Source: a virus (Duplodnaviria > Heunggongvirae > Uroviricota > Caudoviricetes). From it: a stretch of 11,336 bases of DNA. The stretch is taken from IMG/VR virus record IMGVR_UViG_2681813135_000008; one strand, given 5' to 3'. The notes under the pieces were generated by a model. The model saw nothing but the letters and a program-made list of their open reading frames with translations. It was not told the origin of the DNA and made no database searches. The number at the start of each line of letters is the position of its first letter. Positions within the stretch are counted from its first letter, which is position 1. This document shows, piece by piece, positions 372 through 7,061 of this stretch. Position numbers and translations under genes: made by a program.

Positions 372-1883
372 CTGATGGCAATTCTTGATGATGTGATTGG
401 CGTTTTTTCACCAGGATGGAAAGCGGCAAGGCTGCGTTCCCGTGCGGTGATCCAGGCTTATGAGGCCGTAAAAACGACGCGGACACACAAAGCCCGACGG
501 GAGAACCGAACTGCCGACCAGTTAAGCCAGTACGGGGCCGTGTCGTTACGTGAGCAGGCCCGTTACCTTGATAACAACCACGATCTGGTTATTGGTGTAT
601 TTGACAAGCTGGAAGAACGGGTGGTGGGGAAAAACGGGATTATTGTCGAGCCACATCCGGTATTACGCAATGGGGCCATTGCCCGTGACCTGGCTGCGGA
701 GATTCGCACCCGATGGAGTGAATGGTCTGTCAGCCCGGAAGTCACCGGGCAGTTTACCCGTCCGATGCTGGAACGTCTGATGCTTCGTACCTGGCTGCGC
801 GATGGTGAGGTGTTTGCCCAGATGGTTTCCGGGCGCATAAACAGCCTGACGCCTTCTGCCGGTGTTCATTTCTGGCTGGAGGCGCTCGAGCCGGACTTTA
901 TTCCCATGACCAGTGATGAGAGCAACAGGCTGAATCAGGGCGTGTTTGTTGATGACTGGGGGCGTCCCGAAAAATATCTGGTGTATAAAAGCCGTCCCGT
1001 ATCCGGACGGCAGATGGAAACCAAAGAAGTGGATGCAGAGCGAATGCTGCATCTTAAATTTGTTCGCCGTCTGCACCAGATGCGCGGGACGTCTTTATTG
1101 TCCGGTGTGCTGATCCGCCTCAGTGCTCTGAAAGAGTATGAAGATTCTGAGCTGACTGCAGCAAGGATCGCCGCTGCTCTGGGGATGTACATCCGGAAAG
1201 GCGACGGGCAGAGCTATGAAGCGGATGGTAATGGCAGCAAGGATAAGGAACGCGAGCTTACCATTCAGCCAGGCATTATTTACGATGATCTGAAACCCGG
1301 CGAAGAAATCGGAATGGTGAAGTCGGATCGCCCCAATCCTAACCTTGAAACTTTTCGTAATGGTCAGTTGCGTGCCGTGGCGGCGGGCAGTCGTCTGAGT
1401 TTTTCCAGTACAGCGCGCAACTATAACGGCACTTACAGCGCCCAGCGTCAGGAGCTGGTTGAATCCACTGATGGCTACCTGATCCTGCAGGACTGGTTTA
1501 TTGGTGCCGTCACCCGTCCGATGTATCGTGCCTGGCTGAAACAGGCTGTGGCATCCGGTGTTATCAGGCTACCCCGCGATCTTGACCGTTCTTCACTGTA
1601 TACCGCGGTGTATTCCGGACCGGTGATGCCGTGGATTGACCCTGTTAAGGAGGCTGAGGCCTGGAAAATCCAGATTCGTGGTGGAGCGGCGACAGAATCA
1701 GACTGGGTACGTGCTGGTGGTCGTAATCCGGATGATGTCAAACGTCGGCGCAAGGCCGAAATTGATGAAAACCGCAAGCTGGATCTGGTATTTGATACCG
1801 ATCCGGCCAGTGATAAAGGAGGCAGCAGTGCCGCAACGAAACGACATGAGCCGCAGCACACCGACGACCAGTCCGAAGAATAA
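372..1883 (+). CDS. Phage portal protein, 5'-truncated (about 503 codons present, N-terminus missing at the gap)
   Basis: Long ORF in frame 3 starting at the gap edge with no start codon, stop TAA at 1881-1883. It lies immediately upstream of, and overlaps, the prohead protease gene, which is the canonical portal position. Size fits a ~500-530 aa portal. Family assignment is by position and size, not a recognised motif. Confidence 0.7.
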   Translation: MMAILDDVIGVFSPGWKAARLRSRAVIQAYEAVKTTRTHKARRENRTADQLSQYGAVSLREQARYLDNNHDLVIGVFDKLEERVVGKNGIIVEPHPVLRNGAIARDLAAEIRTRWSEWSVSPEVTGQFTRPMLERLMLRTWLRDGEVFAQMVSGRINSLTPSAGVHFWLEALEPDFIPMTSDESNRLNQGVFVDDWGRPEKYLVYKSRPVSGRQMETKEVDAERMLHLKFVRRLHQMRGTSLLSGVLIRLSALKEYEDSELTAARIAAALGMYIRKGDGQSYEADGNGSKDKERELTIQPGIIYDDLKPGEEIGMVKSDRPNPNLETFRNGQLRAVAAGSRLSFSSTARNYNGTYSAQRQELVESTDGYLILQDWFIGAVTRPMYRAWLKQAVASGVIRLPRDLDRSSLYTAVYSGPVMPWIDPVKEAEAWKIQIRGGAATESDWVRAGGRNPDDVKRRRKAEIDENRKLDLVFDTDPASDKGGSSAATKRHEPQHTDDQSEE

Positions 1884-3855
1884 TTCCTGGTTCAGGATGC
1901 AGGCTGGTCACCAGAGTGACGCGGATATTTATATTTATGACGAGATTGGTTTCTGGGGTGTTACAGCGAAGCAGTTTATCAGTGATCTGAATGCACTGGG
2001 CGATATCACCCACATTAATCTCCATATTAATTCACCGGGTGGCGATGTCTTTGAAGGCATCGCCATTTTTAATGCGCTGAAAACACATGGTGCGTCCATT
2101 ACCGTTTATGTCGACGGTGTGGCGGCGTCAATGGCGTCGGTCATTGCGATGGTGGGAAACCCGGTCATTATGCCGGAAAACACCTTCATGATGATTCATA
2201 AACCATTTGGCTTTACGGGCGGTGATGCGGAGGACATGCGCACCTATGCCGACCTGCTCGATAAAGTTGAGGCGGTTCTGTTACCCGCTTATGCACAGAA
2301 AACCGGGAAAACCACCGATGAAATTGCTGCCATGCTGGCGGATGAGACCTGGATGTCCGGTGCCGAATGTCTGGCACATGGATTTGCTGATCAGGTAACG
2401 CCAGCCGTTAAGGCAATGGCATGTATTCAGTCAAAACGTACAGAGGAATTTAAAAAGATGCCGGAATCCATTCGAAACATGATTACTCCGCCACGCAACA
2501 GTGCTCCACGCGTACAGGATAATGAACCTGAAGCCTCCCGGACGCCAGTGCAGGCAGCAGCACCCGTGGTGGATGAAAACAGCATCCGTGCGCAGGTACT
2601 GGCAGAGCAAAAAGCGCGTGTAAACGGTATTAATGATCTGTTTGCCATGTTTGGCGGGCGTTATCAGACGCTGCAGGCTCAGTGTCTTGCCGATCCTGAA
2701 TGTTCGCTGGAGCAGGCCCGCGAAAAGCTGTTGAACGAGATGGGGCGCGAGTCCACGCCATCCAATAAAAATACCCCGGCTCATATTTATGCCGGTAACG
2801 GTAATTTTGTGGGGGACGGGATCCGCCAGGCGCTGATGGCGCGTGCCGGATTTGAAAAAACCGAACGTGATAATGTCTACAACGGGATGACCCTGCGTGA
2901 ATATGCCCGTATGTCACTGACTGAACGGGGTATTGGGGTTTCCAGTTATAACCCGATGCAGATGGTCGGTGCGGCGTTCACACACAGTACGTCTGACTTC
3001 GGTAATATTCTGCTGGATGTTGCGAACAAAGCCATTCTGCAGGGCTGGGAAGATGCCCCTGAAACCTATGAACAGTGGACGCGGAAAGGTCAGTTGTCTG
3101 ATTTTAAAATTGCCCATCGTGTGGGTATGGGTGGCTTCAGTGCTCTGCGTCAGGTGCGTGAAGGGGCGGAATATAAATACGTCACCACCGGAGATAAACA
3201 GGCCACTATTGCACTGGCGACCTATGGCGAGCTGTTCAGTATCACCCGTCAGGCCATTATCAATGATGATCTGAATATGCTGACCGATGTCCCGATGAAA
3301 CTGGGCCGTGCGGCGAAATCCACTATTGCCGATCTGGTTTATGCCATTCTGACGTCTAACCCGAAAATCTCCACAGATAATGTAAGTCTGTTCGATAAAG
3401 CGAAACATGCAAACGTACTGGAGAGCGCTGCAATGGACGTGGCATCGCTGGATAAAGCCCGCCAGTTGATGCGCGTTCAGAAAGAGGGGGAGCGTCATCT
3501 GAATATTCGTCCTGCGTTCGTACTGGTACCGACGGCGATGGAGTCTGTTGCTAACCAGGTCATTCGCTCCTCAAGTGTCAAGGGGGCTGACATTAACGCC
3601 GGTATTATTAACCCGGTGAAAGATTTTGCGACCGTTATTGCAGAGCCTCGTCTTGATGATAACAGCCAGACCACCTTCTACCTGGCTGCGTCAAAAGGCT
3701 CCGATACGATTGAAGTGGCTTATCTCAACGGTGTGGATACGCCATATATTGATCAGATGGAGGGCTTCAGTGTGGATGGCGTGACAACGAAAGTGCGTAT
3801 TGACGCCGGTGTCGCGCCAGTTGATCACCGCGGTCTGGTGAAATGTACGGCGTAA
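1846..3855 (+). CDS. Prohead protease (ClpP-like serine peptidase) - scaffold-like linker - major capsid protein, fused in one ORF (669 codons from ATG 1846)
   Basis: N-terminal region has ClpP-type motifs: GVAASMASV with Ser codon at 2128-2130, and MMIHKPFG with His codon at 2197-2199 (compare E. coli ClpP ...AASMG... and ...IHQP...). A low-complexity P/A/Q/E-rich linker follows (about 2400-2900), then a ~300-aa C-terminal domain ending at TAA 3853-3855, called capsid by position and size. Start is uncertain: ATG 1846, GTG 1828 (preceded by AAGGAGG at 1816-1822, spacing 5) or ATG 1897. Confidence 0.8.
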   Translation: MSRSTPTTSPKNNSWFRMQAGHQSDADIYIYDEIGFWGVTAKQFISDLNALGDITHINLHINSPGGDVFEGIAIFNALKTHGASITVYVDGVAASMASVIAMVGNPVIMPENTFMMIHKPFGFTGGDAEDMRTYADLLDKVEAVLLPAYAQKTGKTTDEIAAMLADETWMSGAECLAHGFADQVTPAVKAMACIQSKRTEEFKKMPESIRNMITPPRNSAPRVQDNEPEASRTPVQAAAPVVDENSIRAQVLAEQKARVNGINDLFAMFGGRYQTLQAQCLADPECSLEQAREKLLNEMGRESTPSNKNTPAHIYAGNGNFVGDGIRQALMARAGFEKTERDNVYNGMTLREYARMSLTERGIGVSSYNPMQMVGAAFTHSTSDFGNILLDVANKAILQGWEDAPETYEQWTRKGQLSDFKIAHRVGMGGFSALRQVREGAEYKYVTTGDKQATIALATYGELFSITRQAIINDDLNMLTDVPMKLGRAAKSTIADLVYAILTSNPKISTDNVSLFDKAKHANVLESAAMDVASLDKARQLMRVQKEGERHLNIRPAFVLVPTAMESVANQVIRSSSVKGADINAGIINPVKDFATVIAEPRLDDNSQTTFYLAASKGSDTIEVAYLNGVDTPYIDQMEGFSVDGVTTKVRIDAGVAPVDHRGLVKCTA

Positions 3856-5532: not shown

Positions 5533-6276
5533 ATGACCACACCAAATCCACTGGCAAAAACGAAAGGTGCGGGAACGACGTTCTGGATGTACACCGGCAA
5601 GGGCGATGCGTTTGCGAACCCTTTATCGGACACTGACTGGCTGCGTCTTGCGATGGTGAAGGATCTGCAACCTGGCGAAATGACCGCTGATGCAGAAGAT
5701 GACACTTATCTCGATGATGAAGATGCAGACTGGAAAACGACAACCCAGGGGCAGAAATCCGTCGGTGATACTTCGGCGACGCTGGCCTGGCGTCCGGGTG
5801 ACAGCGGACAGAAAAAACTGGTTCAGTTGTTCGACTCCGGTGAAGTCTGCGCGTTTCGTATCAAATATCCCAACGGCACTGTTGATGTTTTCCGTGGCTG
5901 GCTGAGCTCACTGGGTAAAACCATTGCCTCAAAAGACGTGATGACCCACACAGTGAAAATCAGCGGTGTGGGGCGTCCGTATCTGGCAGAGGAAGGCACT
6001 GAAACAGTGAGCGTTACCGGGCTGACGGTGGCACCGGCATCTGCCAGTGTAAAAGTGGGAGCAACCACCACGCTGACCTTTACAGTAAAACCTGACGGAG
6101 CCAGTGACAAAGCGATCAGTGTGCATTCGACAGATCCACAGACTGCCACGGTGACCCTGAACGGGCTTGTGGCCACGGTGAAAGGCGTGAAGCAGGGCAG
6201 TGTCAGCATTGTGGGCATGACTTCTGACGGCGATTTTGTGGCAGTGGCTGCGGTGGCTGTCAGCGCCGCAGGTTAA
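5533..6276 (+). CDS. V: Major tail tube protein, lambda V homolog, with C-terminal Ig-like domain
   Basis: AAGGAGG at 5521-5527, ATG 5533. Translation MTTPNPLAKTKGAGTTFWMYTGKGDAFANPLSDTDWLRLAMVKDLQPGEMTA...YLDDEDADW...FRIKYPNGTVDVFRGW... closely matches lambda gpV ([52 protein letters not shown]...). The C-terminal ~90 residues have the T/V/S-rich Ig-like pattern. Stop TAA 6274-6276. Confidence 0.9.
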   Translation: MTTPNPLAKTKGAGTTFWMYTGKGDAFANPLSDTDWLRLAMVKDLQPGEMTADAEDDTYLDDEDADWKTTTQGQKSVGDTSATLAWRPGDSGQKKLVQLFDSGEVCAFRIKYPNGTVDVFRGWLSSLGKTIASKDVMTHTVKISGVGRPYLAEEGTETVSVTGLTVAPASASVKVGATTTLTFTVKPDGASDKAISVHSTDPQTATVTLNGLVATVKGVKQGSVSIVGMTSDGDFVAVAAVAVSAAG

Positions 6277-6296: not shown

Positions 6297-6320
6297 GCCC
6301 CGGTTATCCGGGGCTTTTTT
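6297..6320 (+). terminator. Rho-independent terminator/attenuator between V and G
   Basis: GCCCCGG(6297-6303)-TTAT-CCGGGGC(6308-6314): perfect 7-bp GC stem, followed by TTTTTT (6315-6320). It lies in the 60-bp V-G spacer. Confidence 0.6.
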
Positions 6321-6336
6321 GCAGGTGGAGAACATG

Positions 6337-6723
6337 ATGTTTCTGAAACAGGGCACGTTTAATTATGAAAAGCAGTCCGTGGTGCTCAGTGAGCTGTCCG
6401 GGCTGCAGAGAATTGAATATCTGGCGTTTGTTCAGCAGCGAACGGCAAAGTTTGATGCCGAAGAGGGAGAACTGCCGGAGGCTGAACGACAGATTGCTTT
6501 TCTGCGGATGGGGATGGATATCAATGCCTGGCTGGTTTCCCGCTCACTGTGGAATGCGGAACAGTCTCAGGATGTTGAGACGCTTTGCGCATCCGTTATT
6601 ACAACATGGTCGTATGATGCCCTGGGAGCGGGGGCGGAGATGGTTCTGTCGCTGAGCGGTATGGGAGCCATTGAGAATGCCGGGGATTTGGAGCATGAGG
6701 TGCTGACGCCGGAAAAGTCCTGA
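6337..6723 (+). CDS. G: Tail assembly chaperone, lambda G homolog (zero-frame product)
   Basis: GGAG at 6327-6330, ATG 6337 (second ATG of ATGATG). Translation MFLKQGTFNYEKQSVVLSELSGLQRIEYLAF... matches lambda gpG (MFLKTESFEHNGVTVTLSELSALQRIEHLAL...). Stop TGA 6721-6723. Confidence 0.8.
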   Translation: MFLKQGTFNYEKQSVVLSELSGLQRIEYLAFVQQRTAKFDAEEGELPEAERQIAFLRMGMDINAWLVSRSLWNAEQSQDVETLCASVITTWSYDALGAGAEMVLSLSGMGAIENAGDLEHEVLTPEKS

Positions 6724-7061
6724 CGCGGGAAATGCAGTTTGTCATGCGGCTTGCCCGGGAGTTCAGGCGGGCAGACTGGCGGCGGATGCTGTCGGAAATG
6801 TCGGCCACTGAGCTTGGTGAGTGGGGCGATTATTTCCGGATGCAGAGCTTCAGTGATGTGTGGATGGATGCGCAGTTTGCCTCGCTGAAGGCATTGATCG
6901 TGAGAATGGTGTCCGGCAGCAGTGATGCTGCGGTGGCTGATTTCAGCCTTTTACCGGAAGAGAACGGGATACCGGAGCGAACGGACGAAGAACTGATGCA
7001 TCTTGGGGAAGGTATTTCCGGAGGTGTGCGTTATGGACCAGATAGCCAACCTGGTCATTGA
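6337..7061 (+). CDS. T: Tail assembly chaperone GT fusion, made by programmed -1 ribosomal frameshift near 6711-6717
   Basis: The -1 frame opens at 6699 (stop TGA at 6696-6698 upstream) and stays open to TGA 7059-7061, overlapping the last 8 codons of G. It has no plausible own start with an RBS. The arrangement is the conserved G/GT recoding of lambda-like tail modules. Confidence 0.65.
6711..6717 (+). other. Candidate slippery heptamer for the G/GT -1 frameshift
   Basis: GGAAAAG, read G-GAA-AAG in the zero frame, is the only A-AAG-type site inside the 25-nt window where both frames are open (6699-6723). Lambda uses GGGAAAG at the equivalent position. Confidence 0.5.

What the first reader, a model, noticed from the sequence alone, without database searches (positions are those of the whole stretch)
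6699..6723. G/GT programmed -1 frameshift with a variant slippery site GGAAAAG
The T frame has no start codon of its own but is open from 6699, overlapping the last 8 codons of G. The only candidate shift site in that 25-nt overlap is G-GAA-AAG (6711-6717), one base different from lambda's G-GGA-AAG. The P-site re-pairing (GAA to GGA) would be imperfect, so efficiency may differ from lambda. The G:GT ratio matters for tail assembly.
Basis: partly seen in the sequence, partly recalled or inferred. Interest (0 to 1): 0.4.

Follow-up and report, generated by a model that had tools for sequence, protein, structure and literature searches.

The report
Phage tail chaperone G/GT frameshift site
This is the ordinary, well-known ribosomal -1 frameshift that lambda-like phages use to make a little of a fused tail-assembly chaperone (GT), and its slippery sequence GGAAAAG is the commonest form in this gene family rather than an odd variant of lambda's.

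Summary
The sequence features are real. G (6334-6723) is a lambda gpG homologue. The -1 frame is open from 6699 to 7061 and encodes a lambda gpT homologue. The only in-register slippery motif in the 25-nt overlap is G_GAA_AAG (6711-6717). One detail is wrong: the T frame does have an ATG (6732), and every public record uses it as the start of T. That ATG has the weakest Shine-Dalgarno of the neighbouring genes and is not conserved outside this clade.

In 161 related loci T is always in the -1 frame. Among 74 distinct junctions, 59 carry GGAAAAG at the homologous position, 10 carry lambda's GGGAAAG and 5 carry other A-rich heptamers. The first G sits at a synonymous third-codon position and is kept across seven different codons, which argues for selection on the heptamer itself. 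Phage N15's GenBank record already annotates this same GGAAAAG as the slippery sequence.

A programmed -1 shift giving a 242-aa GT fusion (...LTPEK|VLTREMQF...) is therefore strongly supported by comparison, but untested here. I found no conserved downstream structure. An upstream SD-like GAGGTG is a possible but unproven stimulator. The feature is ordinary. What may be useful is that the fusion is unannotated in the RefSeq and GenBank records I read for this prophage, which about a third of complete E. coli genomes carry.

The parts
5533..6276 (+). Major tail (tube) protein gene, a lambda gpV homologue. It forms the upstream boundary of the V-G-T-H cassette.
   Evidence: Pfam Phage_TTP_12 2.7e-66 plus Big_2. 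RefSeq CDS 'phage tail protein'.
6297..6320 (+). Intrinsic terminator-like hairpin GCCCCGGTTATCCGGGGC followed by TTTTTT, between V and G. It probably attenuates read-through into G/T/H.
   Evidence: Terminator scan. Annotated as a terminator at the same place in mEp460, Ayreon and N15.
6334..6723 (+). Gene G, tail assembly chaperone. It is 129 aa from ATG 6334; RefSeq starts at ATG 6337. This is the zero-frame product, ending ...LTPEKS*.
   Evidence: TIGR01674 phage_lambda_G 190.7 bits against a cutoff of 74.45. PF06894 1.8e-39. Translation.
6697..6702 (+). SD-like GAGGTG, 8 nt 5' of the heptamer. It is a possible (unproven) anti-SD pairing stimulator of the shift.
   Evidence: Duplex with the 16S 3' end -6.9 kcal/mol; only 9% of equivalent windows in the same gene are as good. 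GAGG at 8-12 nt is seen in Gifsy-2, L027, L029, L043, L052 and L077, but is absent in N15, HK225 and mEp213.
6711..6717 (+). Slippery heptamer G_GAA_AAG. tRNA-Glu sits on GAA (P site) and tRNA-Lys on AAG (A site); after a -1 slip they sit on GGA and AAA.
   Evidence: In register and unique in the overlap. The identical heptamer is at the aligned position in 59 of 74 distinct junctions. Annotated as the slippery sequence in N15.
6717..7061 (+). T segment read in the -1 frame after the shift. The first -1 codon is GTC at 6717-6719 and the stop is at 7059-7061. It adds 114 aa, giving a GT fusion of 242 aa.
   Evidence: TIGR01715 phage_lam_T 136.5 bits against a cutoff of 77.35. PF06223 5.1e-15. 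The fusion aligns without a break to lambda gpGT, with K128, E133 and F136 invariant.
6732..6734 (+). In-frame ATG in the T frame, used by public annotation as the T start. It is probably not the main route to T.
   Evidence: Best SD pairing -3.5 kcal/mol, against -5.6 to -12.6 for neighbouring genes. The aligned codon is Leu or Arg in nearly all relatives, and the first T-frame ATG elsewhere falls at codon 10, 16, 24 or 52.
7033..10098 (+). Tape measure protein gene (lambda gpH homologue), the downstream boundary of the cassette. Its SD (GGAGGTG, 7020-7026) and its start lie inside the conserved GGVRYG end of T.
   Evidence: TIGR01541 286 bits. RefSeq CDS. SD energy -10.8.

Best explanation
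Most ribosomes translating G terminate at TGA 6721-6723 and make the 129-aa chaperone G. A small fraction slip back one base when tRNA-Glu and tRNA-Lys occupy GAA and AAG of G_GAA_AAG (6711-6717). tRNA-Lys re-pairs perfectly with AAA. tRNA-Glu (anticodon 3'-CUU*-5') re-pairs with GGA through two Watson-Crick pairs and a G.U at the middle position. Translation then continues in the -1 frame from GTC 6717 to the stop at 7061. The product is a 242-aa GT fusion (...LTPEK|VLTREMQF...).

By homology with lambda, G and the G part of GT coat the tape measure protein, and the T part recruits the major tail protein. The frameshift frequency therefore fixes the G:GT ratio.

Shown here: the gene identities, the frame relationship, the unique in-register site, and its conservation across relatives. 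Inferred: that the shift happens, its frequency, the two-tRNA mechanism, and any role of the upstream GAGGTG.
For: 1. Cassette. The order is V-G-T-H, with equivalog-level matches to lambda G, T and the tape measure.
2. Frame. T is in the -1 frame relative to G in all 161 related loci examined.
3. Heptamer. Among 74 distinct junction sequences the aligned heptamer is GGAAAAG in 59, GGGAAAG in 10, AAAAAAG in 2, GGCAAAA in 2 and GGGAAAA in 1, while the flanks vary freely.
4. First base. Base 1 of the heptamer is a synonymous third-codon position in G and is untranslated in the T frame. It is G in 38 of 39 representatives across GCG, CCG, CTG, TTG, GTG, ACG and ATG. Background NNG use for P/A/L/V/T codons is 0.41, so P is about 5e-3 even if only six events are counted as independent.
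5. Codon choice. Lys is AAG in 36 of 39 representatives, although AAA is the commoner Lys codon in these genes (194 vs 104).
6. Protein alignment. The fused protein aligns colinearly with lambda gpGT. The slip-site Lys and residues E133 and F136 are invariant; E133 is encoded upstream of ATG 6732.
7. Interchange. The heptamers swapped several times on the tree, with GGGAAAG in at least 3 separate clades. This suggests they are functionally equivalent.
8. Precedent. N15's record annotates the same GGAAAAG as 'slippery sequence for -1 translational frameshift', and Gifsy-2's record (54% identical) calls its T 'part of G+G' frameshift hybrid protein'.
9. Literature. A_AAG is the most shift-prone tetramer in E. 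coli, where one tRNA-Lys reads both AAA and AAG. [quoted passage not shown]
Against: There is no experimental datum for this locus or, in the papers I could read, for any G_GAA_AAG G/T site. In a reconstituted system AUG_GAA_AAG was chosen as the sequence 'unfavorable for slippage' and gave mainly zero-frame product. The A_AAG tetramer alone is barely above background (about 0.15%) without a stimulator. No stable or conserved downstream structure was found. An in-frame ATG 8 nt after G's stop could give free T by re-initiation. The conservation statistics are not phylogenetically corrected.
Confidence: 0.88

Rival explanations
1. T is made mainly as a free 109-aa protein from ATG 6732, either by ordinary initiation or by termination-reinitiation after G's TGA. 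This is how the public records I read annotate it. On this view the heptamer is incidental.
For: ATG 6732 is in frame, 8 nt after the G stop, and present in every member of the 92-100% clade. GenBank and RefSeq call it the T start, and the 109-aa protein is on at least 1000 contigs.
Against: It has the weakest SD of the neighbourhood (-3.5 kcal/mol). The aligned codon is Leu or Arg in nearly all relatives, including the nearest outgroup, Citrobacter L023. In many relatives the first T-frame ATG is at codon 24, inside the conserved LAREFxRPDWRAML core. T-frame residues upstream of the ATG are conserved (E133 invariant). This view does not explain the invariant heptamer or its synonymous first G. 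A minor free-T by-product in this clade is not excluded.
Confidence: 0.06
2. The shift is real but involves only tRNA-Lys slipping on A_AAG. This could occur in the A site, or in the P site after translocation with the next codon unread. The preceding G_GA would then contribute nothing.
For: A_AAG is the best tetramer in E. coli. tRNA-Glu on GGA is a second-position mismatch and was classed as non-slippery in vitro. Efficient -1 sites in a cell-free screen had AAG, AAA or GGG as the P-site codon with purine-rich 5' context. Some relatives place a stop directly after the heptamer (L038, L074, L024, L026, L057), which would favour P-site slippage during a termination pause.
Against: Heptamer positions 1-3 are restricted to GGA, GGG, AAA and GGC, and position 1 is G at a synonymous site in 38 of 39 lineages. 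A tetramer-only mechanism does not predict this. The tetramer alone gives about 0.15% without a strong stimulator, well below the lambda-like need of about 3%, and no strong stimulator is present.
Confidence: 0.12
3. The frames are joined by RNA polymerase slippage on the A run, or the arrangement is a decayed pseudogene with no functional GT.
For: None specific. The site contains an A4 run.
Against: Transcriptional realignment needs runs of more than 7 A or more than 8 T, and here there are only 4 A. The same arrangement is kept in 161 loci across many Enterobacterales genera, with both domains under protein-level conservation. It also occurs in plaque-forming phages such as mEp460, Ayreon and phi458.
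Confidence: 0.01

Closest known systems
Bacteriophage lambda G / G-T programmed -1 frameshift (Levin, Hendrix & Casjens 1993; Xu, Hendrix & Duda 2004, 2013, 2014, as cited in PMC5009743)
   Same: Same gene families (TIGR01674 and TIGR01715), same V-G-T-H order and same -1 frame. The slip site is at the same aligned Lys codon, the A-site A_AAG is the same, and there is no required downstream structure.
   Different: The P-site codon is GAA (Glu) rather than GGA (Gly), so re-pairing in the -1 frame needs a middle-position G.U. The G tail after the site is 1 codon rather than 5. The fusion protein is about 36% identical. This clade also has an ATG 5 codons into the T segment.
Phage N15 genes 14/15 (GenBank AF064539) and its relatives HK225, mEp213 (phi80-like) and Gifsy-2
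   Same: Identical heptamer GGAAAAG at the homologous position. In N15 it is explicitly annotated as 'slippery sequence for -1 translational frameshift'. Gifsy-2's T is annotated as part of a G+G' frameshift hybrid, and its junction ...ACG CCG GAA AAG TCC TGA is identical to the window's.
   Different: Only sequence divergence: 36% identity to N15 and 54% to Gifsy-2. I found no experimental measurement for these sites either.
E. coli dnaX A_AAA_AAG frameshift signal
   Same: The same shift-prone tRNA-Lys on A_AAG in the A site. The window also has an SD-like GAGGTG 8 nt upstream, within the 6-17 nt range used to search for SD stimulators.
   Different: dnaX has a fully cognate heptamer, a proven SD stimulator and an essential downstream stem-loop, and it shifts very efficiently: about 80% in the reconstituted system with its stem-loop. 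Here the P-site re-pairing is near-cognate, there is no significant downstream structure (z -0.26), and the SD-like element is not conserved family-wide.
'twofour' class of non-canonical slippery motifs in PRFect (PMC10274946)
   Same: GGAAAA fits the two-plus-four pattern. That paper also notes that tRNA-Glu re-binding to GGA becomes fully complementary if G:U pairs are allowed.
   Different: The PRFect classes are descriptive patterns drawn from annotated, mostly actinophage frameshifts. They are not experimentally tested.

Membership tests
Lambda-type tail assembly chaperone G/GT programmed -1 frameshift | Two ORFs located between the major tail protein gene and the tape measure gene | tested here: met
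   V 5533-6276, G 6334-6723, T frame 6699-7061, H 7033-10098.
Lambda-type tail assembly chaperone G/GT programmed -1 frameshift | The upstream ORF is a gpG homologue and the downstream ORF a gpT homologue | tested here: met
   TIGR01674 190.7 bits (cutoff 74.45) and TIGR01715 136.5 bits (cutoff 77.35). PF06894 and PF06223.
Lambda-type tail assembly chaperone G/GT programmed -1 frameshift | The downstream ORF is in the -1 frame and overlaps the 3' end of G | tested here: met
   25-nt overlap in the -1 frame. The same frame relationship holds in all 161 relatives.
Lambda-type tail assembly chaperone G/GT programmed -1 frameshift | An in-register slippery sequence in the overlap, conserved among relatives at the homologous position | tested here: met
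   G_GAA_AAG at 6711-6717. The aligned Lys is invariant. 59 of 74 distinct junctions have the same heptamer and the rest have G_GGA_AAG, A_AAA_AAG, G_GCA_AAA or G_GGA_AAA.
Lambda-type tail assembly chaperone G/GT programmed -1 frameshift | T is not made on its own (no independent initiation) | tested here: inconclusive
   An in-frame ATG exists at 6732, but it has the weakest SD (-3.5 kcal/mol) and is not conserved. Free T cannot be excluded without an experiment.
Lambda-type tail assembly chaperone G/GT programmed -1 frameshift | A GT fusion protein is produced at a few per cent of G and is required for tail assembly | not testable with these tools
   Needs a reporter assay, mass spectrometry or genetics. 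The exact fusion sequence is absent from the protein collection.
Canonical X_XXY_YYZ simultaneous-slippage heptamer | XXX identical, so that the P-site tRNA keeps two Watson-Crick pairs plus wobble after the shift | tested here: not met
   Positions 1-3 are G-G-A, not G-G-G. tRNA-Glu on GGA has a second-position G.U (sequence; stated as a mismatch).
Canonical X_XXY_YYZ simultaneous-slippage heptamer | YYY identical, with Z allowing cognate A-site re-pairing (A_AAG in E. coli) | tested here: met
   A_AAG at 6714-6717. It is the best tetramer in E. coli.
dnaX/IS-type stimulated -1 frameshift signal | A downstream hairpin or pseudoknot 5-8 nt after the heptamer | tested here: not met
   MFE z-score -0.26 (6718-6800) and 0.72 (6680-6780). 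Mean z is 0.02 over 39 relatives.
dnaX/IS-type stimulated -1 frameshift signal | An upstream SD-like element 6-17 nt before the heptamer | tested here: inconclusive
   GAGGTG lies 8 nt upstream (-6.9 kcal/mol; 9% of background windows are as good). It is present in some relatives and absent in others; the median background fraction is 0.47.

The most novel reading that the evidence does not exclude
G_GAA_AAG was used in vitro as the 'unfavourable for slippage' control. Here it turns out to be the majority, strongly conserved natural slip site of enterobacterial G/T genes, with even its synonymous first G conserved. If so, P-site tRNA-Glu re-pairing through a middle-position G.U is a genuine, selected contributor to -1 frameshifting in vivo. 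Alternatively, these phages deliberately run a lower GT:G ratio than lambda, or they compensate with context elements such as the upstream GAGG. Repeated GAA<->GGA switches would then be a natural one-nucleotide dial for the GT dose.
Probability: 0.3. Interest if true: 0.35.

Novelty: already known. Interest (0 to 1): 0.18.

Why it matters
Biologically this is a textbook recoding event. The G:GT ratio set by the shift controls tail assembly in lambda-like phages.

The practical point concerns annotation. This prophage type is in 1846 of 5426 complete E. coli genomes. In the records I read, T is annotated as a stand-alone 109-aa protein starting at a non-conserved ATG. The likely real product, the 242-aa GT fusion, is absent from a 15-billion-protein collection. 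Proteomic searches, structure predictions and phage-protein catalogues built on such annotation would therefore miss the true protein.

For frameshifting specialists there is a modest point. The survey shows that a near-cognate heptamer, not lambda's canonical one, is the usual solution in this family.

Tried and rejected
- **Literature, string searches.** Searches for 'GGAAAAG' or 'GAA AAG' with 'frameshift' returned mostly primer and mutation noise. The one useful hit was Peng et al. 2019.
- **Literature, key paper.** Xu, Hendrix & Duda 2004 (Mol Cell), which probably tabulates these heptamers, is not held. I could not check whether G_GAA_AAG was measured there.
- **Other papers.** The 2019 dnaX thermodynamic paper contains no GAA P-site variant. 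The GeneTack paper reports 6-7% shifting for an HK97-like chaperone cluster only.
- **Downstream stimulator.** There is no significant structure in the window or across 39 relatives. A 5-bp hairpin at 6718-6730 starts directly after the heptamer and is not conserved, so I rejected it.
- **Upstream SD-like stimulator as a family feature.** Rejected (median background fraction 0.47). It is kept only as a local possibility.
- **Other shift sites.** There are no other candidates in the 25-nt overlap.
- **Transcriptional slippage.** Rejected, since the A run is only 4 long.
- **Viral-contig scan.** It returned only relatives 92-100% identical to the window. These are useful for haplotypes but add no depth.
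- **Exact look-up of the fusion protein.** Not found.

Full report
**Observation.** The window carries a lambda-like tail gene cassette. G starts at ATG 6334 (RefSeq uses ATG 6337) and ends ...ACG CCG GAA AAG TCC TGA at 6723. In the -1 frame a TGA sits at 6696-6698. The heptamer G_GAA_AAG occupies 6711-6717 in the X_XXY_YYZ register and is the only in-register slippery candidate in the overlap. The predicted junction ...LTPEK|VLTREMQF... is correct.

One statement is wrong. The T frame does contain a start codon, ATG 6732-6734, 8 nt after G's stop. GenBank and RefSeq records annotate T from this ATG or a later one, and none of the records I read annotates a slippage.

The bare string GGAAAAG is not rare: 5 copies against 1.83 expected. 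By frame arithmetic, only the 6711 copy is in register with its ORF.

**What the genes are.**
- G matches TIGR01674 phage_lambda_G (190.7 bits, cutoff 74.45) and PF06894.
- The -1 frame matches TIGR01715 phage_lam_T (136.5 bits, cutoff 77.35) and PF06223.
- The gene before G is a lambda-type tube protein, and the gene after T is a tape measure protein.
- The DNA is 98-100% identical to phages phi458, Ayreon, mEp460 and cdtI. It is present in 1846 of 5426 complete E. coli genomes.

**Comparative evidence for the shift site.** I joined G and T at the heptamer for the window and 11 annotated relatives and aligned seven of the fusions, including the window, lambda, N15, Gifsy-2 and mEp213. They are colinear across the junction, and the slip-site Lys (K128) is invariant. 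E133 and F136 are also invariant; E133 is encoded between the heptamer and ATG 6732.

A scan of one genome per species and of viral contigs raised the set to 161 loci carrying both G and T. T is in the -1 frame in every one. Among 74 distinct junction sequences, the aligned heptamers are:

| Heptamer | Distinct junctions |
|---|---|
| GGAAAAG | 59 |
| GGGAAAG | 10 |
| AAAAAAG | 2 |
| GGCAAAA | 2 |
| GGGAAAA | 1 |

The neighbouring codons differ freely. The first base of the heptamer is a third-codon position in G and is not translated in the T frame. It is G in 38 of 39 representative lineages although the codon is GCG, CCG, CTG, TTG, GTG, ACG or ATG. The background frequency of G at such positions in these genes is 0.41. 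That gives P of about 5e-3 if only six events are counted as independent, and far less if all are counted. Lys is AAG in 36 of the 39 representatives, although AAA is the commoner Lys codon in these genes.

On a neighbour-joining tree of the fusions, GGAAAAG is spread throughout. GGGAAAG appears in at least three separate clades, with the lambda clade nested among GGAAAAG lineages, and at least six state changes are needed. So this heptamer is the family's usual form, and lambda's is the minority.

**Is T made on its own?**
- ATG 6732 has the poorest SD pairing of the neighbourhood: -3.5 kcal/mol, against -5.6 to -12.6 for V, G, H, M and L.
- The aligned codon is Leu or Arg in nearly all relatives, including the closest outgroup (Citrobacter L023, CTG).
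- Elsewhere the first T-frame ATG falls at codon 10, 16, 24 or 52 after the slip site. Codon 24 lies inside the most conserved LAREFxRPDWRAML block.

Independent initiation therefore cannot be the conserved way of making T. A minor free-T product by re-initiation in this clade remains possible.

**Stimulators.** The RNA after the heptamer folds no better than shuffled sequence: z is -0.26 for 6718-6800 and 0.72 for 6680-6780. Across 39 relatives the mean z is 0.02. An SD-like GAGGTG lies at 6697-6702, 8 nt before the heptamer. Its pairing energy is -6.9 kcal/mol, and only 9% of equivalent windows in the gene are as good. GAGG at 8-12 nt recurs in Gifsy-2 and several other relatives. It is missing in N15, HK225 and mEp213, and it is not enriched family-wide. 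I treat it as a possible local enhancer only.

**Mechanism.** E. coli has a single tRNA-Lys for AAA and AAG, and A_AAG is its most shift-prone tetramer. The tetramer alone gives only about 0.15% without a strong stimulator. Lambda needs about 1 GT per 30 G. The conserved G_GA in front therefore probably matters.

After a -1 slip, tRNA-Glu faces GGA, with Watson-Crick pairs at positions 1 and 3 and a G.U in the middle. PRFect's authors make the same point for GGGGGAA motifs, and they list a 'twofour' motif class that GGAAAA fits. Against this, Peng et al. 2019 chose AUG_GAA_AAG as the sequence unfavourable for slippage and saw mainly zero-frame product in a reconstituted system. Efficiency here is therefore likely lower than lambda's unless context helps. 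This step is inference, because nothing was measured.

**Comparison with what is known.** The G/GT frameshift is a classic. The N15 GenBank record marks exactly GGAAAAG as the 'slippery sequence for -1 translational frameshift'. Gifsy-2, whose junction ACG CCG GAA AAG TCC TGA is identical to the window's, is annotated as a G+G' frameshift hybrid. The feature meets every testable membership criterion of the lambda-type G/GT system except strict absence of a T start codon. It fails the strict X_XXY_YYZ definition at position 3.

**Verdict.** The feature is real, conserved and almost certainly functional, but ordinary and already known in kind and in sequence. What is worth keeping:
- The annotation gap. 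The 109-aa 'T' is on at least 1000 contigs, while the 242-aa fusion is absent from the protein collection.
- The observation that a near-cognate heptamer, used as a negative control in vitro, is the natural majority form.

Noticed in passing
L059-L071, L080-L083 (genome-contig hits); L016: G/T loci with lambda's exact junction sequence turn up on short contigs, many at about 1x coverage, in assemblies of unrelated organisms. These include Kitasatospora, Oceanobacillus, Neobacillus, Shewanella, Pseudomonas, Leeuwenhoekiella, Paenibacillus and Enterococcus. This is almost certainly lambda control-DNA contamination. A 'Bacillota' MAG contig (L016) is 99% identical to this E. coli prophage and is probably mis-binned.
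   Followed up: no
L024 (Kluyvera), L026 (Ewingella), L057 (Providencia), L038/L074 (Providencia): Some relatives have G_GCA_AAA or G_GGA_AAA or G_GAA_AAG followed immediately by a TAG stop. Here the shift may occur with tRNA-Lys in the P site while the ribosome pauses on the stop codon, which would be a different flavour of the same recoding event.
   Followed up: partly
window 6297-6320: There is a strong intrinsic-terminator-like hairpin (7 G-C pairs plus a T6 run) between the major tail gene V and G. It is also annotated in the mEp460, Ayreon and N15 records, and would lower G/T/H transcription relative to V.
   Followed up: partly
window 7020-7061: The tape measure gene's Shine-Dalgarno (GGAGGTG, 7020-7026) and ATG (7033) are embedded in the codons of T's conserved C-terminal GGVRYG motif. 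T and H overlap by 29 nt, so that motif is under dual constraint.
   Followed up: no
window 6697-6702: An SD-like GAGGTG lies 8 nt upstream of the heptamer. The GAGG core is kept in all haplotypes of the clade (the GAGGCG variant is common) and recurs at 8-12 nt in several distant relatives, but not in all.
   Followed up: partly
window about 1830-3855 (within ORF 1636-3855): The head gene here is a ClpP-like prohead protease / major capsid protein fusion (RefSeq annotation of the identical prophage). It overlaps the end of the portal gene.
   Followed up: no
window 6732-7061; RefSeq WP_001161009.1 and cluster: The records I read name a 109-aa 'phage tail assembly protein T' starting at a non-conserved ATG. 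The 242-aa GT fusion of this widespread prophage is not present as a protein record in the 15-billion-sequence collection.
   Followed up: yes
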